From an uncultured bacterium (GTDB lineage Bacteria > DRYD01), in NCBI GenBank assembly GCA_937139605.1, contig CAKZQG010000011.1:1-64000 (forward strand): 64,000 nucleotides of DNA. Reading direction: 5' to 3'. Shown piece after piece: positions 1,989 to 22,717 of this stretch (its first letter is position 1; the number at the start of each line of letters is the position of its first letter). Under the pieces are notes generated by a model. The model was not told the DNA's origin. It did not search any database and saw only the letters and a list, made by a program, of their open reading frames with translations. Made by a program: the position numbers and the translations under genes.

Positions 1989-2306
1989 ATGAACATAAAT
2001 GATAATTTAAACAACTTTAATATAATAAAGCCAGAAAAAATAGCTAATCCTTTTAAAACTGAAGAATCTAAAGAAACTACAGGAATGACCACTTTTGGAC
2101 AATTATTTAATAACGTTATCGGAGGAGTTAATAATAAACTATTAGAAGCAGGGGAAATGAGTAGAAAAGTAGCAAGTGGAGAAGTTAAAGACATTAATCA
2201 AGTAGTATTTGCTTGGCAAGAAGCTGGATTATTACTAAAAATGACAAGAGGGATAGCACAAAAACTAATAGAAGGAGCTAAAACTTTATTCCAAACAAAT
2301 ATCTAA
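1989..2306 (+). CDS. fliE: Flagellar hook-basal body complex protein FliE
   Basis: 105 aa. C-terminal pattern VVFAWQEAGLLLKMTRGIAQKLIEGAK matches the FliE signature (V.....A..E....Q...VRNKLV.AYQEI). RBS AAAAGGGGTG upstream. Located between flgB and flgC. Confidence 0.6.
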   Translation: MNINDNLNNFNIIKPEKIANPFKTEESKETTGMTTFGQLFNNVIGGVNNKLLEAGEMSRKVASGEVKDINQVVFAWQEAGLLLKMTRGIAQKLIEGAKTLFQTNI

Positions 2307-2343
2307 TTTTTAATTAATTTTAATTAAAAAGGAGGGGTTAAGT

Positions 2344-5867: not shown

Positions 5868-8800
5868 TCAAAAACAATATAACTAAACCTAAAGGTAACA
5901 AAATTAAAATATAAAACAAATTAAATACAATAAAAAACTTACTAAACGGTTGATAAAATAAATTTATAAAATACTCTCCTTTAGGAATAATAGCTCCCTT
6001 AACTAAGCCATTAACCTTTAATATAGGTACCTCAATTTTATCTCCATTTTTATCCTGTAAATACATCCTAAAACCCGGAAAATATAAACTATTTATTACA
6101 ATAAAAACATCCGAATCAGATTTTATATTCATCTTTAAATCCCCATTCCCTATACTCTCTACTTTTAAATAATTATTTTCTCTAAAATTGCTATTTAAAT
6201 CTTTATTGTTAATGGAATAAATAAATAAACTATTTACTTTTAAAAAATTATTATTAAAAATATATTTTTTAAACTGTACAGGTAATATTCCTAAAAGTTT
6301 AAAATAAGATATATACTTTTTATCATTTATGATTTTAGAAAAATCAGAAGAATAAATAAAATCTTTAGTAATTAAAACTTCCTTATATGGATTAAATCTC
6401 AAAAAATAGAAATAATACTTTAATTCATTTAAATCATTAATTAGTTTAATATTACTAACAGTATAAACCAAAGGTAAAGCCTGGTCATTAACATAAACTC
6501 TCTTTTCCATTACATCCTTTAAATAATAATAAGCTAAAGGAAAATCCAGCTTGTTTGGTTTAACTTCTAAATTCTTAAGGGAATCATTAATAAACTTGTT
6601 ATTAAGATTATTTTTAAAGTCAGGTACAAAAGCAAAAGGATATTCAATTATTTCTATTTCTTTTATATCATACTTTCTATTATAACTATAAAGAGAAAAA
6701 ATATTTAATTTAACATTACCATTAAAATCTGCTTCTTTTTTACTTTTCAAAACCAATGGAACACATATATAAGCATAATCATCATTCCTAAAATAATAAT
6801 CATTAACAAAATAATAACATAAGGAATTATCATATTGATCTTTTAATTCAATACCTAAGCCATCAGATTGATTAAAAATAAGTTTCCTATATCTTGTTTT
6901 AATATTTTCCTTAGATAATTTAGCTTTAATAGCTAGAGCTAAAACCTGACTTTCAGGCTTTATTTTAAAAGAATAACTTATAACAGAATCATAACCCAAA
7001 CCTACTGAATAATAATAATTTTTTGTATTTTTATCATAAGTGTAAGAAAAAGAGACATTTTTAGTATCAAGTTTAGTTAAATCCACTTTATAATAACTAC
7101 TTTTTTTGAGATATTCTAAATAATTTAAAGGCCGTAATAAAGTAACTGGCGTTAAATTACTATAAAGTTTATCAAATTCTTGATTGATAATTAAATACTT
7201 AACAGAAAAAGTAGTAAATATAAAATTATTAACTAAAAAGAAATAATCAGTAGGTTCTAAGAAACTCCCATTCATCCAAATACTAAATAAAAATAAGAAA
7301 TCTTTATTAATAACAGGTTCATAATAATTTAACATCTTTTTATTATTTATAGCACTAACAAGTAAAGGAAATCCAGATAAATAACACATCCTATACTCAC
7401 TCTCAACAAAATCAGTAGAATAATTATAAGCTTTAATATTCTCCGGTTTAGCCCACCATATACTTCTATAATTTGGACTTAAATTATAAAATAAATATAA
7501 ACTTTCAAATAAAAACATAAAATTAAATAAAATCAAAATAAAAATCTTAAAATCTATAAAAAATTCCCTATTTTTAAAAAACTTATAAATAATTAAAAAT
7601 ATCGTAAAAATAGCAATATAAACAAATAAAAACAACATCGGAAAAAATAACTCAACAGAATGTATAGTTAAATTACTTAAGTTTTGAGAGATCTTTTGAT
7701 TAACTAAAGAAATCACAAAAAAAATAATCACTATTAAATAAGTATAAAATGAAATTTTAATAAAATCAATAAACTTTTCAAATTGAAATTTAATAAATAA
7801 TAAATAAATTGATAGGGGGATAATAATAGCTTGAAATAAATTGAACTCCATTAAATGTCTAGCAACTACTCTAACCTTAGAATAAAATGGGATATCATAT
7901 AAAAGATAATGTAAGATATTGTATTTTCCTAAAGCAAGTAAAAAACCAATTATTCCTAAAACAGCTATAAACTTATAATTATATAATTTTTCTTTATAAA
8001 TATAAAATAAAGCAAAAATAGTTAGTGGTAATGAAATAACACTGATAAAATTAAGAAACTCAAAGGAAATAGTACCTGTTTCTGGACCATAATAACTTCT
8101 ATAAACAGATCCCCCAAAAATATACGGAATAACTTGCATAATTAAAGCATAAGGAGGATAAGACCCTTGATTATATATACTACTAGATAAAATATCTCTT
8201 ACTGAAACAGAAGCTAACTTAATCCCCTCAGATAAAACAACATAACTACCTATTAAAAATAAAATAAAACTTATAAAAAACATAAAAAAAATCCGAATAT
8301 TTTTAGAAATAATAATATAAATAATAACAGCAATAAAAGTATATAAAAATGCCTGGGGATAACCAGCTAAAAACTGATATAACAAACTTATACCTAATAA
8401 TACTATATAAAACCCATTAATAAATATATTTTTCAGTAAACTTTTAGTAAAATCATAATTATCAATAATCAAATGAATAGAAAGGATACTTAAAGCTAAA
8501 TAAGGGATAGAATTTTGTAAAGGAATAAAATCCACATGAGAAACAATAAACCCACTTAACCCAAATAATATACCAGACATAAAAGCTAATATCTTTACAA
8601 TAATTTTATTATTTTCTATTTTAGAAATTAAATAAAAAGAGTAAAGGAAAGCAAAAAACTCAGCCATTACAAAATGCAAAAATATACTTAAATTATACCC
8701 AATATATGGATCAAAGAATTTAAAAATAATTAAATTAAAGGGATAAAATGCTCCACTTTGAATTATCCCCAAAAATGGGAGCCCCAAAGCTTGATAATCA

Positions 8801-9048
8801 AACCATAATGGAATAGTTCCCTCTTTTAAATTATCTGATAAAAAAACCCTTAAAGGTAAAAATTGATTATAAGTATCAGCACTACCAATTACATACGAAG
8901 TAGATGAAAAAAAATTCTTTAAATACTGTCCAAAAACTGGGTAAAAATAAATAAAAGTAATTAAAATATATAAAGTTAAAATATCTAAATTATATTTAAA
9001 AATCAATTTCAAAAATAAGAAAAAAAAGTTAGCAATTTTTTTGATCAT
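5845..9048 (-). CDS. Large polytopic membrane protein (YfhO/GT-C-like N-terminal TM domain plus ~500-aa extracytoplasmic C-terminal domain)
   Basis: 1067 aa. More than 12 hydrophobic helices in the first ~480 aa, then a soluble Asn/Tyr-rich domain and a final TM. No catalytic motif recognised with confidence. Confidence 0.4.
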   Translation of the reverse strand: MIKKIANFFFLFLKLIFKYNLDILTLYILITFIYFYPVFGQYLKNFFSSTSYVIGSADTYNQFLPLRVFLSDNLKEGTIPLWFDYQALGLPFLGIIQSGAFYPFNLIIFKFFDPYIGYNLSIFLHFVMAEFFAFLYSFYLISKIENNKIIVKILAFMSGILFGLSGFIVSHVDFIPLQNSIPYLALSILSIHLIIDNYDFTKSLLKNIFINGFYIVLLGISLLYQFLAGYPQAFLYTFIAVIIYIIISKNIRIFFMFFISFILFLIGSYVVLSEGIKLASVSVRDILSSSIYNQGSYPPYALIMQVIPYIFGGSVYRSYYGPETGTISFEFLNFISVISLPLTIFALFYIYKEKLYNYKFIAVLGIIGFLLALGKYNILHYLLYDIPFYSKVRVVARHLMEFNLFQAIIIPLSIYLLFIKFQFEKFIDFIKISFYTYLIVIIFFVISLVNQKISQNLSNLTIHSVELFFPMLFLFVYIAIFTIFLIIYKFFKNREFFIDFKIFILILFNFMFLFESLYLFYNLSPNYRSIWWAKPENIKAYNYSTDFVESEYRMCYLSGFPLLVSAINNKKMLNYYEPVINKDFLFLFSIWMNGSFLEPTDYFFLVNNFIFTTFSVKYLIINQEFDKLYSNLTPVTLLRPLNYLEYLKKSSYYKVDLTKLDTKNVSFSYTYDKNTKNYYYSVGLGYDSVISYSFKIKPESQVLALAIKAKLSKENIKTRYRKLIFNQSDGLGIELKDQYDNSLCYYFVNDYYFRNDDYAYICVPLVLKSKKEADFNGNVKLNIFSLYSYNRKYDIKEIEIIEYPFAFVPDFKNNLNNKFINDSLKNLEVKPNKLDFPLAYYYLKDVMEKRVYVNDQALPLVYTVSNIKLINDLNELKYYFYFLRFNPYKEVLITKDFIYSSDFSKIINDKKYISYFKLLGILPVQFKKYIFNNNFLKVNSLFIYSINNKDLNSNFRENNYLKVESIGNGDLKMNIKSDSDVFIVINSLYFPGFRMYLQDKNGDKIEVPILKVNGLVKGAIIPKGEYFINLFYQPFSKFFIVFNLFYILILLPLGLVILFLIKIFRKN

Positions 9049-10867: not shown

Positions 10868-12098
10868 CTACTTTAAAGAACTTTGAATATAATTTTTATA
10901 TTTTTCTTCTAATTTAGTATCATTAATTAAATCTAAGATATAATCAGCAAATTCTTTAGTGGTAGCTCCATTAGGTCTGCCTGTAATAACTAATTTTCTT
11001 TCATACTGGCCAGCGATTTCCAAAGCCATATTAATTTTTTCAGCTTTTTCTTTATATCCAATATGTTCTAATAGCATAGCAGAAGCTTTAATAACGCTAG
11101 AAGGATCAGCATAGATATGGCGGCCTTCCTCAACCATTCTAGGAGCACTTCCATGAATAGCTTCAAACATAGCATATTTAGTACCAATGTTAGCACTTCC
11201 AGCAGTTCCTACTCCTCCTTGAATCTCAGCAGCTTCGTCTGTAAGAATATCCCCAAACAGATTTGGCATAACAAATACCTGAAACTCATTTCTCCTTTTC
11301 TCATCTATTAACTTAGCAGTCATAATATCAATAAACCAATCATCAGCAATAATCCCAGGATAATCTTTAGCTACTTGATAAAAAACTTTTAAAAATATTC
11401 CATCTGTAGTCTTAATAACATTAGCTTTATTAACAGCAGTAACTCTATTAAATCCATTTTTTTTAGCATACTCAAAAGCTAACTTAACTATCCTGTAAGT
11501 CCCAAAATAACTAATTAATCTAAAATCTATCCCAAATTCTTCTTTTATTTCAACTCCATAAGGTCCAAGTGCATAAAGATCTTCAGTATTTTCCCTAAAA
11601 AAAGTCCAATTAATATTTAATTTAGGGACTTTAACAGGTCTAACATTAGCAAATAGATCTAATACTTTTCTAATAGCAACATTAGCGCTCTCTATATTAG
11701 GCATATTATCTCCCGCTTTAGGGGTAGTAGTAGGCCCTTTAAGTAAGACATGGCATTTTAATATTTGCTCTAAAACATCATCAGGAATAGGCTTTAAAAA
11801 TTGAATCCTTCTTTCTATTGTTAATCCATCTATATAATTAAATTTAACTTTACCATTTTTTACTTCTTGATCTAAAAGATATTCTAATATTCTTTGAGCT
11901 TCTTTAGTAATAAAAGGGCCAATACCATCTCCACCAATAACACCTATCACAATTGTATCTAATTTAGAATAATCAATAAAATTAGAATCATTTTTAATTT
12001 TACTTATCCTTTCATATTCTCTTTTTAGTAAATTAGCAAAATGTTCTTTAGCTTCAGCAATAGCAGCATCAATATTTTCTAATTCAATAACCTTCATA
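10868..12098 (-). CDS. icd: NADP-dependent isocitrate dehydrogenase (prokaryotic dimeric type)
   Basis: GGDGIGPFIT, LLKGPTTTP, NLFGDILTDEAAEIQGGVGTAGSANIG match E. coli Icd-type motifs. Start set to MKVIELEN with GGAGA RBS (RC of 12104-12108); the track used an upstream TTG. Confidence 0.8.
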
Positions 12099-12110
12099 AT
12101 ATTCTCCTTG

Positions 12111-12235
12111 CTTAACAAAAGTGTATATTCTTATACACTTTTGGCAGACCTATTTGTATCCCGCCAATTTTTTAGCCTTATGGTCTGCAGGCGGTATTAG
12201 GCTAAAAATACCAAAACTCAATTAACAACTTCCTT
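12111..12235 (-). promoter_or_regulatory. Copy A of a conserved ~125-nt leader cassette, oriented toward icd. Extended homology with copy C runs to about 12330.
   Basis: Reverse complement reads AAGGAAGTT...TACCGCCTGCAGACCATA...GGCGGGATACAAATAGGTCTGCCAAAAGTGTATAAGAATATACACTTTTGTTAAG, ending ~12 nt before the icd RBS. It shares an 18-mer and a ~35-mer exactly with the copies at 53588 and 55483. Confidence 0.6.
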
Positions 12236-12412
12236 AGGAGTTTTTTTAAATACTATCTCTTTACACGTTCCTTTGCCACTTACCTTGATGTTAAGTATCA
12301 TTTTGCTAGTAAGATTGTGTATCTTTTAGCTATAGTTAATAATGTTTTTCTATTAATATACATTTTTTGATAGTTTTTTACAACTGTTTCAATTTTCCTT
12401 TAGTATTTATTT

Positions 12413-13513
12413 TTATTTCTTTTTAGAAGAAGCAGAAACTAATCTTTCAAATTCTTCAGGATTAAAGGCAGCAGCCATAGCGTATTCATATGAAATTAAA
12501 TTCTGTAAGTATAAATCTCTTAGGGACTGATCAAAAGAAATCATACCATCTTCTGCACCAGACTGAATAGCGTTAGTAAGCATATGAGTTTTTCCTTCTC
12601 TAATAAGGTGCCTTATAGCAGGTGTTCCAGTCATTATTTCTAAAGCTAAAACCCTACCACTACCTGTAGCCTTAGGAATTAAATTTTGAAAAACTACACC
12701 TTCTAATATCATTGATAACTGGACCCTTACTTGATGTTGCTGATGAGGAGGAAAAGTATCTATAATTCTATCTACTGCATTAGCACAACCAGTAGTATGT
12801 AAAGTACCTAAAACTAAGTGTCCAGTTTCAGCAGCAGTCAAAGCAGTTTGAACTGTTTCAAAATCCCTTAACTCACCTACTAGTATAACATCTGGGTCTT
12901 GTCTTAACGCAGATTTTAAAGCGTTAGCAAAACTATAAGTATCAGCTCCTATTTCTCTTTGAGAAATTATAGCCAATTTATCTTTATGTAAAAACTCTAT
13001 TGGATCCTCAATAGTAATTATATGACATTTTCTGTTAGAATTAATACAATCGACCATAGCAGCTAAAGTAGTAGATTTTCCAGATCCAGTAGGTCCAGTT
13101 ACAAGAACCAACCCCCTAGGCCTTAGTGCTAAATACTTAAAAATCTCAGGCAATCCTAATTCGTCTATAGTAAATGGTCTAGAAGGAATTATCCTAACGG
13201 CTAAAGCCCACGAGTTTCTTTGGAAATAAGCATTACATCTAAACCTCGCTAACCCAGGCACACTATAAGCAAAATCCAATTCCCTTTCTGCTACTAACTT
13301 AGCTTTTTGTTGCTCTGTAAGCATTCCTTCTATCATCTTTCTTATTCCATTAGGTGGAATAACTTGTGGAATAGCAGGTTGAAGTTCTCCATCAATTCTT
13401 AACATAGGTGGAGATCCTGCTTTAATATGTAAATCACTTGCATTTTTCTCAACCATCATCTTTAATAAAACATCTATTGGATTTTCTGAAGTTACACTCA
13501 TTAAAATTAACAC
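12413..13513 (-). CDS. pilT: Type IV pilus retraction ATPase PilT/PilU family
   Basis: 366 aa. Walker A GPTGSGKST, and GTPAIRHLIREGK, which is the PilT-family signature box. Confidence 0.85.
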   Translation of the reverse strand: MLILMSVTSENPIDVLLKMMVEKNASDLHIKAGSPPMLRIDGELQPAIPQVIPPNGIRKMIEGMLTEQQKAKLVAERELDFAYSVPGLARFRCNAYFQRNSWALAVRIIPSRPFTIDELGLPEIFKYLALRPRGLVLVTGPTGSGKSTTLAAMVDCINSNRKCHIITIEDPIEFLHKDKLAIISQREIGADTYSFANALKSALRQDPDVILVGELRDFETVQTALTAAETGHLVLGTLHTTGCANAVDRIIDTFPPHQQHQVRVQLSMILEGVVFQNLIPKATGSGRVLALEIMTGTPAIRHLIREGKTHMLTNAIQSGAEDGMISFDQSLRDLYLQNLISYEYAMAAAFNPEEFERLVSASSKKK

Positions 13514-13564
13514 CCCCTATTAAAAATTTATAAAATAAAAATTTATAAAATTAAAAATAAAAAT

Positions 13565-15628
13565 TTATAAAATTTCAGCAGTTAATAATGTTGAACTATT
13601 ACATAATAACAACATAAATCTTTCATTTATTTTTAAAATTGAATTAATATTTTCATAAATACCACTATTAAAATCTAAAATATCAATTAAATTATAACTA
13701 TAAAATAAAGAGCCGCTACTACCAACTATAAAATAAAAACTACCTATATAAATTATATCATTTGCTTCAATAAAACTTTTAGGCAAAGAAACTTTTTTAA
13801 AATCGTTATTTTCTATGTAACCGATAAATCCATTACTTAATGTAAATAATTTATTATTAACTATTCTAAAATTTTTAATAGCATAAAAAGAATTAGTAGA
13901 TATCTTTTTATCTATATCTAAATTAGGATTTAGATAAATAATTTCACCACTGCTATTGCTAAAAATCAGATTATTATTATAATTAATACCATTAACTATA
14001 CTAATACTTTTTTCTTGCAAAACTTTTAAATTACTATCGACTACATATACCTTACCATTAGTAACAATTAAATAATTATTATCAATAAATTTAATAATAT
14101 TATTAATATCACTATAACCGATTTTAAATAAAATAGAATTTTTATCGTTTAATTGTAAGGAATTAATTAAATTAGATAAATCAGAAATAACAACAATTTG
14201 CCCACTATTACCAAAAATAAATAATTTATTATCAATAAAGCTAACACCCCTGAATCTTAATGAAAAATAACTTATCTTGATTTCCTTTAGATTTAGATTA
14301 TCTTTATTAAAATCGTTTAAATCAAATAAAAATAACTTATTTTCACCTATAATAATTATTTTAGAATTATAAATAAAATAACTAAGAAAATTCGTATAAA
14401 AATTTAATTTGATTTTATCTATTTTTAAATTTAATTTTCGATTATCGATAGGTGTTTTAGTTTCTTTAACTTGGGATGTTTGTGAGTCTTGAGATGCCTC
14501 AGATGCTTGAGATACTTGTGGTACTTGAGATGTTTGTTGTATCTGAGATGTTTGTGGTGTCTGAGATGCTTGTATTGTTTGTGGAATCTGAGGTAATTGT
14601 GATACTTCAGATACTTCAGATACTTCAGATACTTTAAATGTTTGTTGCTGATTAGATGAAATTAAAGAATCTATTTTTTGTTCTTTTAAGCTCAATTCAT
14701 TTTGTATATTAGTTGTTTTTTCTTCTTCTTTTTGTAGCTCTTCTATTCTTACATTTATAGAGTTTTCTCTAGTTAATATAAATTTATCTATAGAAGATAC
14801 TAAAGTTATTATATCTTCTACTTCCTTTATATCTTTTATATTCAGATTATAATGATTTATTTTTTCTTTTAATACATCAATTTTATTTTTAATTTCTATT
14901 AGTTTAATTTTTTCTTGTTTAAATGGATCTTTATAAACAGAAATTAAGTACTTAATATTTTTATTTTTTAATTCTTGTTCAAAGTTTTTAACTTTTGATA
15001 TAACAATAGTTATTAATTCGTCTATATCTTTTTTTAATGAGTTAACTTCAGAAATAATTTCGTTTATATTCTTATTTAGTTCAGAAGTAGAAGAAGCTAT
15101 AGCAGCAGTAGATAAAGCAGCAGTAGAAGCAGTAGAAGACAAAGCAGAAGAATAAACATTATTATTTAACTCTTGTATATAATCCACTTTAAAAGTTTTA
15201 GGATTAAGAGAATATAATTTAATGAGTTCAAGTTCGCCTGAATCTAAGAATATTCCACAAGAGCAAACATCAACCCAGATATTACTATCCATTGAATAAT
15301 TAACCAGTTTCATAGGAGCGGAACATACTGGGCATAATCTTTTGCCACTTCCTTTAATGCTTTTACCTAAAGTAGATGGGAAAAACTTTTCTATATCTTT
15401 TAAAGAGATTTCCAAAGCTTTGGTTAATTCTCCTTTATCAAACCATAAGCCAGAACAATTAGGACATTGCTCTATTTTTAATATACTCCCATCAGGAAAT
15501 TTTATATTTAATACTTTAAACTCAACATTACATAATGGACATCTCCTAACTATATTTTCTCTTCCCTTTGATGGATTATCAATACTATTAATATCATTAA
15601 TAATATCTTTTATTAGATCTTTAAACAT
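13565..15628 (-). CDS. Protein with two N-terminal TFIIB-type zinc ribbons, coiled-coil, Ser/Gln/Pro-rich repetitive linker and C-terminal repeat (propeller-like) domain
   Basis: CPLCNVEF...CPNCSGLWFDKGEL and CPVCSAPM...CSCGIFLDSGELE match the C-x2-C...C-x2-C-G-x-W-x-D-x-x-EL zinc-ribbon pattern. A heptad-rich segment follows, then SEVSEVSEVSQLPQIPQTIQASQTPQTSQ..., then repeated NKLFIFGNSG / NGKVYVV beta-strand-like units. No TM segment seen. Confidence 0.5.
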   Translation of the reverse strand: MFKDLIKDIINDINSIDNPSKGRENIVRRCPLCNVEFKVLNIKFPDGSILKIEQCPNCSGLWFDKGELTKALEISLKDIEKFFPSTLGKSIKGSGKRLCPVCSAPMKLVNYSMDSNIWVDVCSCGIFLDSGELELIKLYSLNPKTFKVDYIQELNNNVYSSALSSTASTAALSTAAIASSTSELNKNINEIISEVNSLKKDIDELITIVISKVKNFEQELKNKNIKYLISVYKDPFKQEKIKLIEIKNKIDVLKEKINHYNLNIKDIKEVEDIITLVSSIDKFILTRENSINVRIEELQKEEEKTTNIQNELSLKEQKIDSLISSNQQQTFKVSEVSEVSEVSQLPQIPQTIQASQTPQTSQIQQTSQVPQVSQASEASQDSQTSQVKETKTPIDNRKLNLKIDKIKLNFYTNFLSYFIYNSKIIIIGENKLFLFDLNDFNKDNLNLKEIKISYFSLRFRGVSFIDNKLFIFGNSGQIVVISDLSNLINSLQLNDKNSILFKIGYSDINNIIKFIDNNYLIVTNGKVYVVDSNLKVLQEKSISIVNGINYNNNLIFSNSSGEIIYLNPNLDIDKKISTNSFYAIKNFRIVNNKLFTLSNGFIGYIENNDFKKVSLPKSFIEANDIIYIGSFYFIVGSSGSLFYSYNLIDILDFNSGIYENINSILKINERFMLLLCNSSTLLTAEIL
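14602..14632. repeat. Perfect tandem 9-bp repeat (ATACTTCAG x3.4) inside a longer degenerate repeat tract (14470-14640), encoding SEVSEVSEV...
   Basis: Direct reading: gatacttcagatacttcagatacttcagatac, flanked by ttgagatgcttgagatacttgtggtacttgagatg-type imperfect repeats. Confidence 0.8.
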
Positions 15629-15720
15629 TAAATTTTCCCTCCTTACATAATATTAAAAAAATGATTTATAAAAAGTTTTATAAAATTTAAAGAAATCATA
15701 AAATATTATATAAAAAATTA

Positions 15721-16872
15721 TCATTTAGATCCTAAGACGACATTTCTTGATAGTTTTTTATTTAATCTAATAATATCAATTTTAATGTTATCACCTGGTT
15801 TATATTTTTCAAGGATTTTTCTAAAGTAAATTGTATTTTTAACTATTTCTGAGTTAATAGCATAGATAATATCTCCTTTTTTAAGTCCTGCTTTATCAGC
15901 CGGTCCATCTGTTTCTATTTCCTTTATCATAACCCCATCAGAAATATTTATCCCTAAAAATCTAATTATTTCAGGAGTTAAATCAGCAACTTCAACTCCT
16001 AAATTAGATCTAATGACTTTACCGAAAGTCTCTAAATCTTTAATTATTTTTTGAGCTTTATTAGATGGTATAGCAAATCCGATTCCTTGAGCACCAACTG
16101 CAACTGCCGTATTAACTCCTACTACTTTTGCATTTAAATCAACCAGTGGCCCCCCTGAATTTCCGGGGTTTATTGGAGCATCTGTTTGTAATAAATCTTC
16201 TAAATGCAAATTTCCTACATCTACTGTTCTATTTTTAGCAGAAATAACCCCAACTGTAGCACTATAATCAAAGCCATATGGATTACCTACTGCGATAACC
16301 CATTCCCCAATTTTTATATTATCTGAATCATCAAATTCCAAGGCAGGTAATTTTATATTTTTATCAGTTATATCTAATTTAATAAGTGCTAAATCGGTAA
16401 AAGGATCGCTACCTACAACATTTGCTTTATATTTAACATTAGAATCTGGGAAAGTAATATAAATTTCTTTAGCTTTTTCTATAACGTGGTTATTAGTAAC
16501 AAGGTAGTATTTATTAGAATCAATAATGAAAGCTGATCCAATTCCTTGGCCTTTAAACATTTTATTCCAATCAGGGCCGAAAAAGTACTTAAAAAAATCG
16601 TCCCAATCTTTAGACCATGGGGTATCAGAAGTTATAACATCTACCCGAGCTACCGCCGGCTTAACTTCTTCTATAACTTTAACAAAAGTATTTTTATCTG
16701 CTTCTTTTAGAACCACTGTCTGTTTATATAAAACATTTGTACTAGATGTGGTTTTATTAATATTATTTTGATTTTTAACTAAATTGAAAGTAAATAAAGA
16801 ACCTATTATACCCCCAATAATTGAGCCAACTATTACTGAAATTACCACTAATAAAAATAGCCTTTTATCCAT
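15721..16872 (-). CDS. htrA: HtrA/DegP-family serine protease with C-terminal PDZ domain
   Basis: N-terminal TM anchor, trypsin-like core with GNSGGPLV active-site Ser motif and His/Asp context, PDZ-like C-terminus (GLKKGDIIYAINSEIV). Confidence 0.85.
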   Translation of the reverse strand: MDKRLFLLVVISVIVGSIIGGIIGSLFTFNLVKNQNNINKTTSSTNVLYKQTVVLKEADKNTFVKVIEEVKPAVARVDVITSDTPWSKDWDDFFKYFFGPDWNKMFKGQGIGSAFIIDSNKYYLVTNNHVIEKAKEIYITFPDSNVKYKANVVGSDPFTDLALIKLDITDKNIKLPALEFDDSDNIKIGEWVIAVGNPYGFDYSATVGVISAKNRTVDVGNLHLEDLLQTDAPINPGNSGGPLVDLNAKVVGVNTAVAVGAQGIGFAIPSNKAQKIIKDLETFGKVIRSNLGVEVADLTPEIIRFLGINISDGVMIKEIETDGPADKAGLKKGDIIYAINSEIVKNTIYFRKILEKYKPGDNIKIDIIRLNKKLSRNVVLGSK

Positions 16873-16969
16873 GATAATTTAAAAAATAAGCAAACAAAAA
16901 ATAACTTTACTTCTCTATTTATTTTAGTTCTATATTTTTTATTAATTTTCCTTTTTAATCAATCAATTT

Positions 16970-19510
16970 TTATTTATTTAATTCAAATCTAACTATATCA
17001 TAAAGAATAACCCTTTTACTACCAACAACAACGTACCAATCTGTTCTATTAACTCTAGGTATAGCAATACCCAAATCACCATTATCAGAAGCTATCATTT
17101 CTGTTTGAGAAAAACCAATTATTCTATTATTATCATTTGGATCAACAACACCTTCAACTGAAGCAAAATTGGCAAGATATCTTCCATACCATAACAATTT
17201 TTGATCACTTACAATAGAATTTTTAAAATCTTCATATTCAATATTTTTAAATCTTCCGCCATCCATTAACCATCTATAAATATCCCTATCAGGAATAGTT
17301 AAAGATCCTTTATAAGATATAATATTAGCTGATAATAAGTATTTTCTATTATCATTACTTATTCCATAGTTATTAAAATAGTCATCAGCATTTTTATAAT
17401 TTAAAATTACATAATTTTGGGAAATTATATTTAAAGGTTTAAGTGGGATTCTTAAATTAGGATTATTAGGATTAGAAGTGCTTCTTACAAAATTAGATAA
17501 CCTATTATCATTAGGATTATTATACCATTCATATCCTATAAATCCAGTTACCTCATTATTATCTTTCTTAAAATTAAAATCACTATCTCTAAAGTTCTGG
17601 ATAATTACATTTCCTTCTAACGCTCTAACTACTTGTTTTCTATTATCCCAATTAGTATCACTTTCAGAAGGTATAATATATTTTGCTTGGTTACTAGCTG
17701 TACCCAAGGATATTTGGCCATCATTTGGATTAAAACTCGATGGTATGTACCATGCACCTACTTCATTTATTGAATTTTGATCATAAAAATTTCTATTATT
17801 TAAGTTATCTGTATTACCAAACCTAGTAGCAACCACAGTTAAATCAAAAGGTCTAGGATCATTAGGATTATTATTATTTAAGTAATATAATCCGTTATTA
17901 TTAGAACCATTAGGCATAATAACAACATTTCCTCCATTAACATGTATAGCCGCTAATGAAACTCTTTCAGTTTTATCTAATTTATTTAAATCAATTATTA
18001 TTTCATTGTTTTGTGCCTTAGCTTTGTTGTTATCTACTTGATCTTGCCCAACTTTACCTGGTAAGTTTGAAATATTCTTAAGTAATTCTTTATAATTGAC
18101 TTTACTTTTACTATATCCTCCTACTGCAAAAATCCTTAATTTATCACCTTCAGGTACTATATAAACAGTAGCATATTTAGGGGGGTAAGAATTTACAATA
18201 GCCCTAGCGGTATCGTTAATAGGCATAAAATTATTATTATTATCAGTAGGCCATATCATTTCTATTAAACCACCAGTAGCTGGTGCTCTAGTAATTTCTC
18301 CATTACTATTAGAACCAACTAAAATAGCTTTTGTACTATCTATATTTATAGTAACTATATTAGCATTAGAATCAATTTCCTTTATTTTTTCTGTAATTTT
18401 TTGTATATCTAGATTTCCTTGGTTATTAGCTCCTGGTATTTTTCCATTATTATAAGCATTATTATTATTAACATCTTTTGTTTTATAGTTTTTAATAGAA
18501 AAATCATTTGCATTAGCTAAATTATTTTGATTAACAAAAACATTGACATATCCAGTAGCAGAACCTCCTGACACTAACCTATCAGGAGTAGTCCCATCCC
18601 AAACACCTGTTAGTCCTGAAGTATTAATAGCAGGACTATTACTAACGTTTCTAAAAGCACTACCTACATCATTGGGATTTAAATTAGGAGTGGATAAATC
18701 TCCTTTTATTTCATATCCGTTGGTTATACCAACTGATTTATCAATATTATTAACAGAACTAAGAGCAACAAAAGGGTCAGCAGCAAAAGGTACCCACATC
18801 ATCGGATGCTTTACAAATAAAGCCGTATTAGTAGAAATATTATAAGGGGTTCTTTGAACTACAGTAGCTATTGCCCTACCACTATACCTTATTTGATTAT
18901 AATTTAAATTACCAACAATATTATCAAACGTACCATTAGGTACATTATTTAATTGCGCTACAACTGTATTAATAATTATATCATAAGAAGGAACGGATAT
19001 TAGGAAATTATTAACACTTACAACATTATTATTATTGTCTCGAACTATACCAATATTTCTAGAGATATTTATTCTATTTAAAACCCATAATCCATTATTA
19101 CTCTCTCTGTAATATAAATTCATATCTCTACCAGTACTATCATTAAGTTGAATAATTATATTCTGATTATATCTACCAATCCAATATGGATTATGGGGAT
19201 CATTGCTAAGGGTTTTAAATCTATTATTAGGATTACCAGGCTCAAAAGGATCTAAATTAATATTAATATTATCTCTATCGGTATTATAAATATTTCCCAT
19301 AATTAAAGGGCTTATAACAATATCTAATGTAGTTCTAAGATATTGTGAATATAGAGAAGCTTGCCGTTCTTTTGTTTCAGATAATATCTGTTTTCTTGAT
19401 ACTGCATACATTAACGACATAAATACACTAACTATAACCAACGTAAATAAAACTATAATCAAAGCTGCTCCTTTATTTTTATTTTTTCTAAGAAATTTCA
19501 TATAACTCAC
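16970..19510 (-). CDS. Large GspK/PilX-like minor (pseudo)pilin or pilus-associated surface protein
   Basis: 846 aa. The N-terminus KNKGAALIIVLFTLVIVSVFMSL matches the Glu5-less GspK/PilX-type prepilin-like leader (G-A-A-L-I-x-V-L). It is followed by a large Asn-rich extracytoplasmic domain, and it lies directly downstream of two prepilin-type genes. Confidence 0.4.
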   Translation of the reverse strand: MSYMKFLRKNKNKGAALIIVLFTLVIVSVFMSLMYAVSRKQILSETKERQASLYSQYLRTTLDIVISPLIMGNIYNTDRDNININLDPFEPGNPNNRFKTLSNDPHNPYWIGRYNQNIIIQLNDSTGRDMNLYYRESNNGLWVLNRINISRNIGIVRDNNNNVVSVNNFLISVPSYDIIINTVVAQLNNVPNGTFDNIVGNLNYNQIRYSGRAIATVVQRTPYNISTNTALFVKHPMMWVPFAADPFVALSSVNNIDKSVGITNGYEIKGDLSTPNLNPNDVGSAFRNVSNSPAINTSGLTGVWDGTTPDRLVSGGSATGYVNVFVNQNNLANANDFSIKNYKTKDVNNNNAYNNGKIPGANNQGNLDIQKITEKIKEIDSNANIVTINIDSTKAILVGSNSNGEITRAPATGGLIEMIWPTDNNNNFMPINDTARAIVNSYPPKYATVYIVPEGDKLRIFAVGGYSKSKVNYKELLKNISNLPGKVGQDQVDNNKAKAQNNEIIIDLNKLDKTERVSLAAIHVNGGNVVIMPNGSNNNGLYYLNNNNPNDPRPFDLTVVATRFGNTDNLNNRNFYDQNSINEVGAWYIPSSFNPNDGQISLGTASNQAKYIIPSESDTNWDNRKQVVRALEGNVIIQNFRDSDFNFKKDNNEVTGFIGYEWYNNPNDNRLSNFVRSTSNPNNPNLRIPLKPLNIISQNYVILNYKNADDYFNNYGISNDNRKYLLSANIISYKGSLTIPDRDIYRWLMDGGRFKNIEYEDFKNSIVSDQKLLWYGRYLANFASVEGVVDPNDNNRIIGFSQTEMIASDNGDLGIAIPRVNRTDWYVVVGSKRVILYDIVRFELNK

Positions 19511-19517
19511 CCCCTAA

Positions 19518-20477
19518 TTATATTACTCTCTTATATTTCAGTGTAACTAAAAAAGTCTTTTTCAACTCTAAAATCCTCCTATTTCTTCTCGGATTATTTA
19601 TCCATATACTCACGTTAATTATTAAATTAATTGGATCAGTAAGTATAGCTCCATTAGGTAGATTATCCCAATATGTACCATGTAAAGAAGTTAGAATTTC
19701 AGTTGCTCCTCTGATAGGAATTCTTTGAATAATAATTTCAAATTGATATCTACCACTTCTATCATAAAAAGGTACCTCCCTAGATAAATCTAGTAAATCT
19801 TTTGATCTTAAAATATCTACAGCTAGGAAATTTTTTAAATTTAATAAATTATTGTACCTTTGTTCTTGAGAAATATAGGATTGTCCCCTTAAAGCAATAT
19901 TCAATTGATTATCTTTAAATACATAATACCATCTAATTCTCCTGCTATTTGGTTCTGCTTGATTAACTAAAGCTACTGGTAAAATTTCTCTCTGTGGATT
20001 TAGTGATCGATGAATAATTCTCCTCAAAATATTATTTTGCTCAATAGATAAAGCAGCTACCCTATTTATAGTTGTATTACCTTCAGTATCTGGGTAAATA
20101 TAAATTAAAGGATTTTGATTCAAATTAACTTCCCTTTGAAAAATATTAGGCTGAATAACACAAGTAGGGAAATAATGAGGATTAATAAAAGCTTTATTAT
20201 TATTATTATCTATATCAATACTTGATTCTATTGATTCCCAGGTATCTAAAGGAACTTCTAGATTAGAAGCATTCAATTCATCTTTAATTGTTTTTTCAAT
20301 TAAAGATAAATATTCATTCATTCTTGCTTTTTCAATGGATGCTTTATTTTGCTGAATAACAGAACTAAAAACTTGAATAAATATTAATATTATTACCAAA
20401 AATATAACAGCTGCAATTATAATTTCAACTAATGTAAAACCTTTTTTATTTTTTATTTTATTTTTAAATGAAATCAT
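19518..20477 (-). CDS. Prepilin-type N-terminal cleavage/methylation domain protein (minor pilin/pseudopilin, PilW/GspJ-like size)
   Basis: KKGFTLVEIIIAAVIFLVIIL: canonical G|FTLVE class III signal peptide with Glu5. Confidence 0.7.
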   Translation of the reverse strand: MISFKNKIKNKKGFTLVEIIIAAVIFLVIILIFIQVFSSVIQQNKASIEKARMNEYLSLIEKTIKDELNASNLEVPLDTWESIESSIDIDNNNNKAFINPHYFPTCVIQPNIFQREVNLNQNPLIYIYPDTEGNTTINRVAALSIEQNNILRRIIHRSLNPQREILPVALVNQAEPNSRRIRWYYVFKDNQLNIALRGQSYISQEQRYNNLLNLKNFLAVDILRSKDLLDLSREVPFYDRSGRYQFEIIIQRIPIRGATEILTSLHGTYWDNLPNGAILTDPINLIINVSIWINNPRRNRRILELKKTFLVTLKYKRVI

Positions 20478-20506
20478 ACTTATATTCCTTATTATTTTAT
20501 AATTTA

Positions 20507-21091
20507 CTAAAATGCTACTATTCTTGAAATTCTTATTTCTCGAAATCTCTGTAAATCCCTCGGATTATTTTGGTATAAAATTACAACATGTACCTGATAA
20601 ATACCGTTGCTTATTCTAGAAACTCCTATATAAGAATTTAATAATTGATTAGTTCCAAATCTAATTACTCTACCTTTATGTGTAAAATTATTATTTAAAG
20701 GGTCATTTATAGTATTAGCTAATCCAATCCTTAAGATATTTGCTCCTCTACTCAAAATATCATTAGCATTATAAATAATAAATCTACTATTAATAACATT
20801 AATCTGATTTCCAGCTACAAAATCAGAAATTGAATATATATTATTATTAGGATCTTCTCTTGAAATAGTTGGATCGGCAAATTTATCAGTAGGAGGAAAA
20901 GAACAAACATAATCTAATATCCCTTCTCCAATTTTAGAAATTTCACTTCTTATTTGGGCATTAAGTAGGAGTTTTTGACTCCCTAAAGCAGATAATCCTA
21001 AAATAGCTAAAATCAAAGCTAATAAATTAACCGCTATTACCACTTCTATCAAACTAAAACCTATAAAAACCTTTTTTATAACTTTCTTCAT
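20507..21091 (-). CDS. Prepilin-type N-terminal cleavage/methylation domain protein (minor pilin/pseudopilin, PilV/GspH-like size)
   Basis: FIGFSLIEVVIAVNLLALILAIL: G|FSLIEV prepilin motif. First gene of a tightly spaced minus-strand operon. Confidence 0.7.
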   Translation of the reverse strand: MKKVIKKVFIGFSLIEVVIAVNLLALILAILGLSALGSQKLLLNAQIRSEISKIGEGILDYVCSFPPTDKFADPTISREDPNNNIYSISDFVAGNQINVINSRFIIYNANDILSRGANILRIGLANTINDPLNNNFTHKGRVIRFGTNQLLNSYIGVSRISNGIYQVHVVILYQNNPRDLQRFREIRISRIVAF

Positions 21092-21239
21092 ATAACCAAA
21101 AACCCCTCCTATTATATTAATTATAAAAAACTTTTTTAAAATCCCTATAATCTTTTACATTTTTTAACATTTTTTTTACAAAATTTTATTAGGGATAAAA
21201 TCCTAAAAATAAGAATAAATAAAAAGGGGTGATAAAATT

Positions 21240-21641
21240 ATGGATATAAATAATATAAATAATTTTAAAGACTTCAAAATAGGGGATAATAAATTAAAAA
21301 ATAAATTATCAGAAGGTTCAAGCATAGAAAATATTATACCTAAAAATACTACAGAAAATTTCAAAGATAATTTAGAAATAAAAGATAATATAACAATTAT
21401 TCCTGAAAGCAATTTCCAAAACGAACTAAATAATAATGAAATTCAAAATAAAGATAATAAAAATTTAAATACTTTTGAAAGCGATTTACAAACAGTACCA
21501 AAAAACTTAACTTTATTTGAAATAGAAAATGAACCTAATTTCGTAAATAAAACTCCAAAAAATAATGTAATAAAAACCTTTGGGCCAACTAATTTTCCAA
21601 ATAACCCCGAAGAAATGTTCATAAACCCTAAATACCTATAA
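21240..21641 (+). CDS. Hypothetical Asn/Lys-rich protein (divergent from pilin operon)
   Basis: Strong RBS AAAAGGGGTGAT 6 nt before the ATG. Preferred over the overlapping antisense 69-aa ORF. No recognisable domain. Confidence 0.35.
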   Translation: MDINNINNFKDFKIGDNKLKNKLSEGSSIENIIPKNTTENFKDNLEIKDNITIIPESNFQNELNNNEIQNKDNKNLNTFESDLQTVPKNLTLFEIENEPNFVNKTPKNNVIKTFGPTNFPNNPEEMFINPKYL

Positions 21642-21970
21642 AAAATAAAATAGCTAAAAAATATTTCAATTTATATTTAAGTTAAGTATTAGTAATAAAT
21701 TAGTCAATATCAATAAAGGAAGCTAGGAGCTAATAAATTAATAAAAAAATTATGTATTACTTTTAATTAGTTTTCTTTTAGTCGTTGCTGTTATTATTTC
21801 TGATATTTTCATATACTCTAGACTCACCTGTCATAGACAAAATATCCACTAAGATCTAGGCTATTTACTCTACCCACAGGTTTAAAAAAATAAACAATTT
21901 AATCTAGTTACACGTTAAAATGAGAAACAAAAAATTTTATTCTTATTTTAATTCAATAATAATTAAAAAA

Positions 21971-22717
21971 TTAATAATTTATTAAATTAATGAAGTACTT
22001 TATCAAAGGTAGCTGGTTATTAATAATTTCTTTTTGTTCTGGATGATATTGAACTGCTAAAATTGGATAATTATTATGTCTTATTATTTCAATTACTCCA
22101 TCTTTAGCAAGCGCGAGGATCTCAAAGTTATCTGCTAATTTTTTTATAGCTTGATGATGCCTTGAATTAACCAATTTTAATTCATTTACATCATTGACTA
22201 TTTCTTTCAGTTCTTCAAAAAATTTACCATAGATAACATGTCGTAATTTTCTTCTTGCATTAAAATCTTGGATTTCCGGGTAAATTTTATGAGAATTATC
22301 TATTACAATCCCTTTTACATCATATGGTAAATGCTGAAACAAAGTACCTTTAAAATAAACATTTATAACCTGTATTCCTCTACAAATCCCAAAAATTGGG
22401 ACTTTTTTATGATATTTTTCTAATAATTCCAACTCAAATTCATCTCTATTCTTATCAAATTTATATAAATCTTCTTCATATAAAACATTAGAATTATAGA
22501 ATTCAGGATAAACATCAACACCCCCACTTAAAATAATAATTACACTACCTTCTAAATCATTCACATTAGATTCTTCATAAAAAAAATACTTAGTTTCAAA
22601 ATTCTTATTAAACTTTTTATTAAATTCCTCTGTTATCAAATTAGCAAATTCCAAATATTCATGAAATACAATTTCATTAACATTTTTAGCTAAAACCAAA
22701 GATATCATATAAAACAC
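21971..22717 (-). CDS. Class I glutamine amidotransferase-like / peptidase C26 (gamma-glutamyl hydrolase, PuuD-like)
   Basis: GICRGIQVINV nucleophile elbow (G-x-C-x-G) and ILAVQYHPE His-Glu motif. Confidence 0.7.
   Translation of the reverse strand: MFYMISLVLAKNVNEIVFHEYLEFANLITEEFNKKFNKNFETKYFFYEESNVNDLEGSVIIILSGGVDVYPEFYNSNVLYEEDLYKFDKNRDEFELELLEKYHKKVPIFGICRGIQVINVYFKGTLFQHLPYDVKGIVIDNSHKIYPEIQDFNARRKLRHVIYGKFFEELKEIVNDVNELKLVNSRHHQAIKKLADNFEILALAKDGVIEIIRHNNYPILAVQYHPEQKEIINNQLPLIKYFINLINY

What the first reader, a model, noticed from the sequence alone, without database searches (positions are those of the whole stretch)
12413..21091. Type IV pilus-like operon with embedded HtrA protease and a cytoplasmic Zn-ribbon/coiled-coil/propeller-like protein next to PilT
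On the minus strand, with gaps of 7-97 nt: two Glu5-containing prepilin-type genes (G|FSLIEV, G|FTLVE), an 846-aa GspK/PilX-like Glu5-less prepilin-like protein with a huge Asn-rich domain, an HtrA/DegP protease, a 687-aa protein with two TFIIB-type zinc ribbons plus coiled-coil plus Ser/Gln/Pro linker plus C-terminal repeat domain (no TM, so cytoplasmic), and PilT. No major pilin, PilB, PilC, PilD or secretin is in the window, so this is a minor-pilin/retraction sub-cluster. The Zn-ribbon protein and HtrA are not standard T4P components. A cytoplasmic Zn-ribbon/coiled-coil protein adjacent to the retraction ATPase is a candidate new regulator or adaptor of PilT. A periplasmic protease co-transcribed with pseudopilins suggests pilin processing or quality control.
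Basis: partly seen in the sequence, partly recalled or inferred. Interest (0 to 1): 0.65.

Follow-up and report, generated by a model that had tools for sequence, protein, structure and literature searches.

The report
Pilus tip genes, HtrA, scaffold-pilT pair
Six same-strand genes in a very AT-rich hot-spring-type bacterium are really three separable units: a pilus-tip gene trio, an ordinary HtrA protease, and an uncharacterised zinc-ribbon/helical/beta-propeller protein that always sits just upstream of the pilus-retraction motor gene pilT in two related lineages but not in a third, so it is a plausible, unproven PilT partner.

Summary

Comparison of 22 related loci splits the "operon" into three modules:
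- **Pseudopilin trio:** it occurs without HtrA/ZnR/pilT in L095.
- **HtrA:** it lies upstream of ZnR in only part of the window's own clade. It is absent there in L101 and in all Calescibacterium-like loci.
- **ZnR-pilT:** adjacent and co-directional, with called gaps of 16-51 nt, in 17/17 loci of two clades (ZnR 30-100% identical).

Full-length ZnR homologues in a third, more distant clade are not next to pilT (0/3 informative loci). The tandem zinc-ribbon module alone is widespread and never pilT-adjacent (0/77).

HtrA as a pilin-processing enzyme is not supported. ZnR as a PilT adaptor remains a lineage-restricted hypothesis, about 0.3 likely. Interest is modest.

The parts
20507..21091 (-). 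194-aa prepilin-type protein (GspI/PilV-like position), first gene of the trio
   Evidence: N-terminus 'KKVFIG|FSLIEVVIAV' has Gly-1, Phe+1 and Glu+5. PF07963 and TIGR02532 score below cut-off (12.7 and 14.0 bits). It is conserved as the first trio gene in L001, L016, L097 and L095.
19518..20477 (-). 319-aa prepilin-type protein (GspJ/ComGF-like N-terminus)
   Evidence: 'NKKG|FTLVEIIIAAV'. PF07963 27.5 bits (cut-off 21.2) and TIGR02532 20.4 bits (cut-off 16.3). N-terminal-only matches to ComGE, ComGF and GspJ.
16970..19510 (-). 846-aa Glu5-less pilin-like protein (GspK/PilX-like position) with a large uncharacterised, Asn-rich body
   Evidence: 'KNKG|AALIIVLFTLV'. Weak GspK N-terminal match (E 0.005). 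Only 19 homologues among 5.8 billion clusters, none annotated. The AlphaFold2 model is unusable (mean pLDDT 36.8) apart from a long N-terminal helix (13-70) and a beta-sheet (110-220) at pLDDT 50-77.
15721..16872 (-). HtrA-family serine protease, N-terminal membrane anchor, one PDZ domain
   Evidence: Trypsin_2 99.7 bits and PDZ_2 47.8 bits. TIGR02037 scores 327 bits, below its cut-off of 416. Motifs NNHV127, DLAL160 and GNSGGP237 are present. Its position upstream of ZnR is not conserved in L101 or the far clade.
13565..15628 (-). 687-aa cytoplasmic zinc-ribbon/helical/beta-propeller protein (ZnR)
   Evidence: PF13453 matched twice. AlphaFold2 mean pLDDT 71.5. No TM segment. The family is small: 24 clusters among 5.8 billion, and 4 representatives at E<=1e-30 among 1.84 billion.
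15200..15547 (-). ZnR residues 28-143: tandem C4 zinc ribbons with the conserved inter-ribbon linker 'DIxKFFPS' and the trailing 'GELELIKLYS' helix
   Evidence: Invariant C30, C33, C55, C58, C99, C102, C122 and C124. This is the most conserved part of the protein: linker 63% and second ribbon 72% identity to the far clade, against 20-28% for the rest. Profile match to PDB 8yoz.
14630..15100 (-). ZnR residues 177-333: long helical (coiled-coil-like) region flanked by disordered low-complexity linkers (134-180, 326-396)
   Evidence: AlphaFold2 helices 177-221, 237-259 and 268-333 at pLDDT about 80-88. The linkers are below 50. Weak profile matches to coiled-coil chains. The heptad-periodicity test was not convincing.
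13568..14437 (-). ZnR residues 398-687: 7-bladed beta-propeller
12413..13513 (-). PilT retraction ATPase (probable true start ATG 13501)
   Evidence: TIGR01420 475.6 bits. Full-length match to solved PilTs. Walker A, Walker B, His box and AIRHLIRE present. 85-97% identical across all related loci.
21111..21140 (-). Promoter-like -35/-10 pair just upstream of the first prepilin gene (consensus match only)
   Evidence: TTTAAA-18-TATAAT, 10 of 12 matches. No minus-strand terminator-like site anywhere in 11800-22000. Promoter-like sites are barely enriched over shuffles (92 against 74 +/- 8), so this is weak evidence.

Best explanation
The cluster is a lineage-specific juxtaposition of three evolutionarily separable modules, not one dedicated pilus operon.

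(1) Pseudopilin trio (194 aa, 319 aa, 846 aa). Two are Glu5 prepilins and the third is a giant Glu5-less GspK/PilX-like protein. Most likely they form the tip or priming complex of a type IV filament, with the large body of the 846-aa protein exposed as the tip or adhesive module. This is inferred from gene order and N-termini only.

(2) HtrA. It is an ordinary membrane-anchored periplasmic quality-control protease whose position here is incidental.

(3) ZnR-pilT, a conserved two-gene unit. ZnR is a soluble cytoplasmic scaffold. In order, it has an N-terminal helix, two C4 zinc ribbons, a disordered linker, a helical region of about 150 aa, a second disordered linker, and a 7-bladed beta-propeller.

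Shown: the architecture, and the invariant co-directional adjacency to pilT in two clades, with called gaps of 16-51 nt.

Inferred (about 0.3 likely): ZnR is co-transcribed with pilT. It would act as an adaptor that tethers or positions the PilT hexamer, or gates its access to the pilus base. One end (propeller or zinc-ribbon module) would bind PilT and the other a cellular landmark, with the flexible linkers and helical rod as spacers.
For: - Module separability. L095 keeps the trio (181/267/801 aa with the same N-terminal motifs) but is followed by a convergent C26 peptidase gene, with no HtrA, ZnR or pilT. L101 keeps ZnR-pilT-IDH but has no HtrA in the 313 nt upstream. The ten far-clade loci have a divergent PGM gene upstream of ZnR and recJ downstream of pilT.
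- ZnR-pilT pairing. The pair is adjacent on the same strand in 17/17 loci of the two clades. These are L001-L017 (three far-clade contigs were fetched twice) plus L101. Called gaps range from 16 nt (L005) to 51 nt (window). The genes on both sides of the pair differ between clades: HtrA against PGM upstream, IDH against recJ downstream.
- No minus-strand terminator-like site lies within the cluster.
- Architecture.
- No hit to defence-system models.
- No paper in the held library links a zinc ribbon or propeller protein to PilT.
Against: - Full-length homologues in a third clade (hhalign E 7e-41) are not next to pilT. L098 reads DnaJ-ZnR-CLC-TIM, with no T2SSE ATPase within 8-10 kb. L099 and L100 read PGM-HAD-ZnR followed by a convergent acidic ORF.
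- In the far clade, ZnR-pilT lies inside a same-strand string of housekeeping genes (recJ, lepA, yidC, jag, radA). Conserved adjacency there may be inherited synteny rather than functional coupling.
- All PilT-linked loci come from one narrow group of related MAGs.
- The most conserved part of ZnR, the zinc-ribbon module, is equally conserved in the clade that lacks the pilT neighbour. Elsewhere it occurs fused to kinase, rhomboid and M48 protease domains.
- No interaction, expression or phenotype data exist.
- Whether these genomes encode a complete pilus machine was not testable here.
Confidence: 0.55

Rival explanations
1. ZnR has nothing to do with pili. It is a general cytoplasmic scaffold of unknown role, perhaps in protein quality control or envelope biogenesis. 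Its place upstream of pilT is inherited synteny within a conserved housekeeping gene string.
For: - Third-clade homologues sit next to dnaJ (13-nt gap, L098) or PGM/HAD genes with ftsH nearby (L099), not next to pilT.
- PGM is also ZnR's upstream neighbour in the far clade, which suggests an older PGM-ZnR neighbourhood.
- The tandem zinc-ribbon module is fused in other bacteria to rhomboid, M48 peptidase and Ser/Thr kinase domains.
- It shows no T2SSE ATPase adjacent in 77 loci, 37 of them at least 5 kb long.
- In the window's own clade the other neighbour is HtrA.
Against: - The ZnR-pilT junction is the only one kept in all 17 loci of two clades, while both flanking junctions changed.
- Short gaps and the shared strand fit co-transcription.
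- The proteostasis theme rests on a handful of neighbours and could itself be chance.
Confidence: 0.4
2. One reading: one co-transcribed type IV pilus operon in which HtrA processes or quality-controls the pseudopilins and ZnR regulates PilT.
For: - Six same-strand genes with gaps of 7-97 nt.
- No terminator-like site inside the cluster, and a promoter-like site upstream of the first gene.
- The whole block is kept in the window's own clade at 56-100% identity of the 846-aa protein (L001, L016, L097; partial L007, L015, L017).
Against: - The trio occurs without HtrA in L095.
- ZnR-pilT occurs without HtrA in L101 and in the ten far-clade loci.
- HtrA is far more conserved (87-88%) than the pilins (46-63%) and has the domain set of a general HtrA.
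- The 92-97 nt AT-rich gaps could hold promoters.
Confidence: 0.1
3. The PilT-like ATPase and ZnR belong to a non-pilus machine, for example a defence or DNA-handling system, and the pseudopilin genes are merely nearby.
For: pilT is followed by recJ in the far clade. PilT-family ATPases occur in other contexts. No pilB, pilC, pilD or secretin gene is in the window.
Against: - The ATPase is a full-length, very high-scoring canonical PilT with the AIRNLIRE-type motif.
- PADLOC gives only weak P-loop hits.
- Three prepilin-type genes in the window imply a type IV filament system in this genome.
Confidence: 0.05

Closest known systems
Minor-pilin tip/priming complexes: T2SS GspI-GspJ-GspK, and T4aP PilV-PilW-PilX with PilY1 (M. 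xanthus complex, PMC7541494)
   Same: Consecutive genes encode class III signal-peptide proteins. The last one lacks Glu5 and is the largest, as in GspK/PilX. A large tip-exposed module is likely.
   Different: No GspH/FimU-like fourth gene and no separate PilY1. The 846-aa protein shows no detectable similarity to GspK, PilX or PilY1 beyond its N-terminal segment. Its fold could not be predicted.
PilT retraction ATPases (PDB 5zfq, 6ojx, 5fl3, 2ewv, 3jvv)
   Same: Full-length homology at 350-388 bits, with all the nucleotide-binding motifs checked (Walker A, Walker B, His box) and the AIRNLIRE-type motif.
   Different: Nothing notable, apart from unusually strong conservation across these lineages: 85-97%, higher than LepA.
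HtrA/DegP/DegS family (S1C proteases with PDZ domains)
   Same: Trypsin_2 plus PDZ domains, the His, Asp and Ser triad motifs, and an N-terminal anchor.
   Different: It has a single PDZ, so it scores below the Do-subfamily cut-off (327 against 416 bits). Nothing ties it specifically to pilins.
Caulobacter ZitP, a zinc-finger protein that binds the polar hub PopZ and controls pilus biogenesis and motility (PMC5182063, PMC5182065)
   Same: A cytoplasmic N-terminal zinc-binding module in a multi-domain protein linked to a type IV filament system. This is a precedent for the proposed scaffold or adaptor role.
   Different: The zinc-finger family differs: only PF13453 is detected here. From my own knowledge, ZitP is bitopic, with a TM segment and a DUF3426 domain. 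ZnR is soluble, with helical and propeller domains. ZitP acts on Tad pilus assembly, not on PilT.
Myxococcus polar regulators of T4aP: MglA, SgmX, FrzS, SopA (PMC11580455)
   Same: Cytoplasmic, partly coiled-coil scaffold proteins that decide where and when the pilus ATPases act. Functionally this is what ZnR is proposed to do.
   Different: There is no sequence or domain relationship. Those proteins act mainly on the extension side, and none has zinc ribbons or a propeller.
[not shown]
   Different: Analogy only, at 6-10% identity. All 7-bladed propellers score alike, so no homology is implied.
Stand-alone or fused tandem PF13453 'zf-TFIIB' proteins (PDB 8yoz; about 130-aa proteins in many metagenomes)
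   Same: The same CPxC...CxxCxGxWxDxGEL ribbon, duplicated, at 26-38% identity.
   Different: They lack the helical and propeller domains and are not near pilT. Their function is unknown, and no paper on them was found in the library.

Membership tests
PilT/PilU type IVa pilus ATPase (TIGR01420) | Whole-protein score above the curated cut-off | tested here: met
   475.6 bits against a cut-off of 319.1, covering profile positions 3-343 of 343.
PilT/PilU type IVa pilus ATPase (TIGR01420) | Walker A, Walker B, His box, and the PilT-specific AIRNLIRE motif | tested here: met
   GPTGSGKST at 140, DPDVILVGE at 206, HLVLGTLHT at 232, AIRHLIRE at 299 with one substitution. That these motifs define PilT rests on my own knowledge.
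PilT/PilU type IVa pilus ATPase (TIGR01420) | Drives pilus retraction | not testable with these tools
   Needs genetics or microscopy.
Type IV prepilins (class III signal peptide, PF07963 / TIGR02532) | N-terminal methylation/cleavage motif above cut-off, with Gly-1 and Glu+5 | tested here: met
   The 319-aa protein scores PF07963 27.5 against 21.2 and TIGR02532 20.4 against 16.3. The 98-aa ORF at 62154-62450 scores PF07963 25.7 against 21.2.
Type IV prepilins (class III signal peptide, PF07963 / TIGR02532) | The same motif in the 194-aa protein | tested here: inconclusive
   The motif 'IG|FSLIEV' is visible, but PF07963 scores 12.7 and TIGR02532 14.0, both below cut-off.
Type IV prepilins (class III signal peptide, PF07963 / TIGR02532) | Cleavage by a prepilin peptidase (PilD) and assembly by PilB/PilC | not testable with these tools
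   None of these genes is in the window. Whole genomes could not be scanned.
GspK / PilX minor pseudopilin | Family HMM above cut-off | tested here: not met
   NF037980 scores 16.3 bits against a cut-off of 130, over residues 13-66 only. No PilX_N or GspK Pfam hit.
GspK / PilX minor pseudopilin | Glu5-less hydrophobic N-terminal helix, encoded last in a minor-pilin gene set | tested here: met
   'KNKG|AALIIVLFTLVIVSVF' with position +5 = Ile. It is the third gene of the trio in the window, L001, L016, L095 and L097.
GspK / PilX minor pseudopilin | Pilin-type fold with an inserted domain | tested here: inconclusive
   AlphaFold2 mean pLDDT 36.8. Only helix 13-70 and a sheet at 110-220 are moderately confident.
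HtrA (S1C) protease | Trypsin-like domain with the His/Asp/Ser triad, plus at least one PDZ | tested here: met
   PF13365 99.7 bits and PF13180 47.8 bits. Motifs at 127, 160 and 237.
HtrA (S1C) protease | Do/DegP subfamily (TIGR02037) cut-off | tested here: not met
   327.4 bits against 416.2. It has one PDZ instead of two.
PF13453 Zn_ribbon_TFIIB | C4 zinc ribbon above the gathering score | tested here: met
   56.3 bits against 22, over two stretches. Eight Cys are invariant in 22 homologues.
WD40 / Ycf48-like beta-propellers | 7-bladed propeller fold | tested here: met
   [not shown]
WD40 / Ycf48-like beta-propellers | Sequence-family membership (a WD40 or Ycf48 HMM) | tested here: not met
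   No Pfam or NCBIfam hit for the window protein. There is only a weak precomputed PF17005 hit in two far-clade homologues. Identity to Ycf48 is 15-16%.
ZitP-type polar zinc-finger pilus regulators | ZitP-type zinc finger, TM segment and DUF3426 domain (features from my own knowledge and PMC5182063) | tested here: not met
   A Pfam scan at E<=0.1 gives PF13453 only. No TM segment.
PilZ / FimX-type c-di-GMP regulators of pilus ATPases | PilZ, GGDEF or EAL domain | tested here: not met
   None detected in ZnR at E<=0.1.

The most novel reading that the evidence does not exclude
ZnR is a previously unrecognised class of PilT partner, restricted to Calescibacterium-like thermophile lineages. It would be a soluble scaffold whose 7-bladed propeller (or zinc-ribbon module) docks on the PilT hexamer, while the other end binds a cellular landmark. 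That would localise or gate pilus retraction, a Lis1-like logic applied to a bacterial secretion-family ATPase.
Probability: 0.25. Interest if true: 0.6.

Novelty: new variant of a known kind. Interest (0 to 1): 0.35.

Why it matters
Dedicated protein regulators of the retraction motor PilT are far less well described than regulators of the extension motor PilB (my own knowledge; the library searches turned up none). A conserved, co-transcribed scaffold next to pilT in a deep-branching thermophile group would be a concrete, testable candidate.

The pseudopilin trio, with its giant Glu5-less pilin, would also be an unusual tip complex that merges the GspK/PilX and adhesin roles in one protein.

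The evidence is purely genomic and comes from one narrow group of uncultivated bacteria. It is contradicted by the most distant homologues, and the HtrA part of the story turns out to be ordinary. The practical value is a ranked hypothesis plus a clean dissection of what is and is not conserved.

Tried and rejected
- AlphaFold2 of the 846-aa protein with a 17-sequence alignment failed (mean pLDDT 36.8), so no fold search was run on it.
- The afdb50 fold library was unavailable.
- PDB sequence search with the ZnR profile gave only 8yoz (an 82-aa zinc-ribbon protein) and weak coiled-coil matches. No paper mentions 8YOZ, zf-TFIIB or PF13453.
- PADLOC gave no meaningful defence-system match, so that reading was dropped.
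- Rfam found only two tRNAs in the window and nothing upstream of ZnR in L101.
- A Fourier test for heptad periodicity in ZnR 177-333 was unconvincing. I therefore call the region helical or coiled-coil-like, not a proven coiled coil.
- Promoter scanning is nearly uninformative at 24% GC (92 sites against 74 +/- 8 in shuffles).
- The propeller-only profile search of 1.84 billion representatives found no annotated or functionally informative relatives, only the same family, the third clade and weak blade-repeat matches.
- Asn-richness of the 846-aa protein was considered as a functional feature and largely rejected as compositional bias.

Full report
**Observation**

The window is very AT-rich, about 24% GC around the locus.

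- **PilT (12413-13513).** It scores 475.6 bits on TIGR01420 against a cut-off of 319.1. It aligns end to end with solved PilT structures (388 bits to 5zfq). It carries Walker A, Walker B, the His box and AIRHLIRE. A GGGGGTG Shine-Dalgarno eight bases upstream of ATG 13501 suggests that codon is the real start.
- **HtrA (15721-16872).** It has Trypsin_2 plus one PDZ, the triad motifs and a hydrophobic N-terminal anchor.
- **319-aa protein.** It passes both prepilin-motif models.
- **194-aa protein.** It shows 'IG|FSLIEV' but scores below both cut-offs.
- **846-aa protein.** It begins 'KNKG|AALIIVLF', without Glu5. Its only family signal is a weak N-terminal GspK match.
- **Other pilus genes.** No PilB, PilC, PilD or secretin domain was found in any scanned window ORF of at least 100 aa.

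'No major pilin in the window' is therefore not safe.

**The 687-aa protein (ZnR)**

Pfam finds only two PF13453 zinc ribbons. An alignment of 22 homologues shows eight invariant cysteines. It also shows a strongly conserved inter-ribbon linker ('DIxKFFPS') and a 'GELELIKLYS' helix.

AlphaFold2 (mean pLDDT 71.5) gives this layout:

| Residues | Feature | Confidence |
|---|---|---|
| N-terminus | helix | - |
| 28-75 | zinc ribbon 1 | - |
| 97-143 | zinc ribbon 2 | - |
| 134-180 | disordered stretch | pLDDT < 50 |
| 177-333 | long helices | pLDDT about 80-88 |
| 326-396 | disordered Q/S/T/V/E-rich linker | pLDDT < 50 |
| 401-687 | 28-strand all-beta domain | pLDDT 85-92 |

**How big is the ZnR family?**

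- A search of 5.8 billion protein clusters returned only 24 proteins. Those with names come from Candidatus Calescibacterium MAGs.
- A propeller-only profile search of 1.84 billion representatives found four at E<=1e-30, all the same family.
- It also found two weaker full-architecture relatives, P0046 and P0047. These define a third, higher-GC clade; hhalign against the main family gives probability 100 and E 7e-41 over 548 columns.
- The tandem zinc-ribbon module on its own is widespread. A metagenome scan gave at least 297 relatives, and 77 of the best 80 carry only this module. It occurs as roughly 130-aa proteins, or fused to a Ser/Thr kinase, a rhomboid, an M48 peptidase or a C-terminal TM segment.

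**Gene neighbourhoods**

I collected 22 distinct loci with full-length ZnR homologues or 846-aa homologues.

| Group | Arrangement |
|---|---|
| Window's own clade (ZnR 56-100% identical; L001, L007, L015-L017, L097) | block trio-HtrA-ZnR-pilT-IDH-lepA is kept |
| L101 (ZnR 56% identical) | ZnR-pilT-IDH kept, but the 313 nt upstream of ZnR hold no HtrA |
| L095 (846-aa homologue 40% identical) | trio kept with the same N-terminal motifs, then a convergent C26 peptidase gene; no HtrA, ZnR or pilT |
| Ten Calescibacterium-like loci (ZnR 30-33% identical) | ZnR preceded by a divergent PGM gene; pilT followed by a recJ-like gene, a permease and usually lepA; no HtrA or pseudopilin within 10 kb |
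| Third clade, L098 | DnaJ-ZnR-CLC-TIM |
| Third clade, L099 and L100 | PGM-HAD-ZnR, then a convergent acidic ORF |
| Third clade, L102 and L103 | HAD upstream of ZnR in L102 (the upstream gene in L103 was not scanned) |

ZnR-pilT is therefore adjacent and co-directional in 17/17 loci of two clades, with called gaps of 16-51 nt. No T2SSE ATPase is seen near any third-clade ZnR (0/3 informative loci).

Among the 77 loci that carry only the tandem zinc-ribbon module, none has a PilT-like gene adjacent. One has a fragment 9.8 kb away. Thirty-seven of these loci are at least 5 kb long.

**Interpretation**

The 'operon' is three modules that happen to be contiguous in one lineage.

- **The trio.** It behaves as a unit, with the gene order and N-terminal logic of GspI-J-K or PilV-W-X tip complexes. 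I infer that it primes and caps a type IV filament, with the large body of the 846-aa protein as the exposed module. This rests on N-termini and order only. The protein fails GspK membership by HMM, and its structure could not be predicted. Its Asn-richness (16%) is largely compositional.
- **HtrA.** It is 87-88% identical across the window clade, against 46-63% for the pilins and about 60% for ZnR. It has the standard domain set, and its position is not conserved. The pilin-processing idea has no support.
- **ZnR-pilT.** This is the only junction that survives in both clades while the junctions on either side changed. The short gaps and the absence of terminator-like sites fit co-transcription.

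This is real but moderate evidence for a functional link. Four points weigh against it:

- The far-clade pair is embedded in a same-strand string of housekeeping genes.
- All PilT-linked loci come from one narrow group of related MAGs.
- Third-clade homologues, which keep the whole architecture including the highly conserved zinc-ribbon module, have unrelated neighbours.
- The neighbours seen there (DnaJ, FtsH, PGM/HAD), together with fusions of the zinc-ribbon module to membrane proteases, allow a rival in which ZnR is a general scaffold unrelated to pili.

I put the PilT-adaptor reading at about 0.3 and the unrelated-scaffold reading at about 0.4. The three-module dissection itself is well supported.

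**Comparison with known systems**

- PilT is a plain family member.
- HtrA is a plain single-PDZ HtrA.
- The trio works like a minor-pilin tip complex (PMC7541494), but its large member is not demonstrably a GspK, PilX or PilY1 protein.
- ZnR belongs to no described family beyond its PF13453 ribbons and propeller fold.
- Functional precedents for a cytoplasmic scaffold controlling a type IV filament machine are Caulobacter ZitP (PMC5182063, PMC5182065) and the Myxococcus MglA/SgmX/FrzS/SopA set (PMC11580455). ZnR shares none of their defining domains.
- Lis1, a helical dimeriser plus propeller that docks on a ring ATPase, appears among the fold matches. It is an analogy only.
- Library searches found no report of a zinc-ribbon or propeller partner of PilT.

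**Verdict**

The cluster is a new variant of a known kind: a minor-pilin set and pilT, joined in this lineage by an ordinary HtrA and by a lineage-restricted, uncharacterised scaffold protein. That protein's conserved pairing with pilT is suggestive but not decisive. Interest is 0.35. If the ZnR-PilT partnership were shown, probability about 0.25, it would merit about 0.6.

Noticed in passing
window 62154-62450 (+): A 98-aa prepilin-type ORF, 'MKEEKNPKNKKNG|MTIIEVVISF...', with Gly-1 and Glu+5. It passes PF07963 at 25.7 against 21.2 bits.
   Followed up: partly
window 62606-62776 (+): A 56-aa Thr-rich ORF just downstream of the small pilin ORF. It ends in a Cys/His-containing tail ('...SYQPCGYVLPGGYTCARPKGHKGPHAF'). 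It may be spurious or a small peptide gene.
   Followed up: no
window 1552-2790 (+) and 51850-53396 (+): Flagellar rod genes: FlgB (TIGR01396, 70.5 bits), FlgC (TIGR01395, 150 bits), and two FlgF/FlgG-type genes. The organism therefore encodes at least part of a flagellum as well as type IV filament genes.
   Followed up: partly
window 43973-50903 (-): A likely defence island with locally higher GC (about 29-31%). It holds a 1196-aa Eco57I/MmeI-like fused restriction-methylase and an 872-aa PLD-nuclease/SNF2-helicase protein, with a 196-aa ORF without domain hits between them.
   Followed up: no
window 12119-12412 (-): An unusually long 294-nt spacer between pilT and the isocitrate dehydrogenase gene; the same spacer is about 113 nt in L001. 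The 3' part is GC-richer and forms several hairpins (MFE -52.5 kcal/mol, z = -2.06). No Rfam family matched.
   Followed up: partly
L101 1-313: The region upstream of ZnR holds no ORF and no HtrA. It does hold a roughly 130-nt stretch that looks GC-richer than the 27.6% GC contig (by eye, not measured). No Rfam match at E<=0.01.
   Followed up: partly
window 56354-58912 (+) and 5845-9048 (-): Two large proteins without any Pfam hit. One is an 852-aa Asn/Ile/Lys-rich soluble protein. The other is a 1067-aa protein whose sequence looks multi-TM by eye (not tested), conserved next to lepA in L001.
   Followed up: no
L001-L017, L101 (pilT genes): PilT is 85-97% identical across lineages whose LepA is 76-94% and IDH 71-88% identical. 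That is unusually strong purifying selection on the retraction ATPase.
   Followed up: partly
L026, L032, L088, L059, L091; P0069-P0071: The tandem PF13453 zinc-ribbon module occurs as the cytoplasmic part of a Ser/Thr kinase, a rhomboid protease, M48 peptidases and small C-terminally anchored proteins. This suggests a general, uncharacterised interaction or sensing module.
   Followed up: partly
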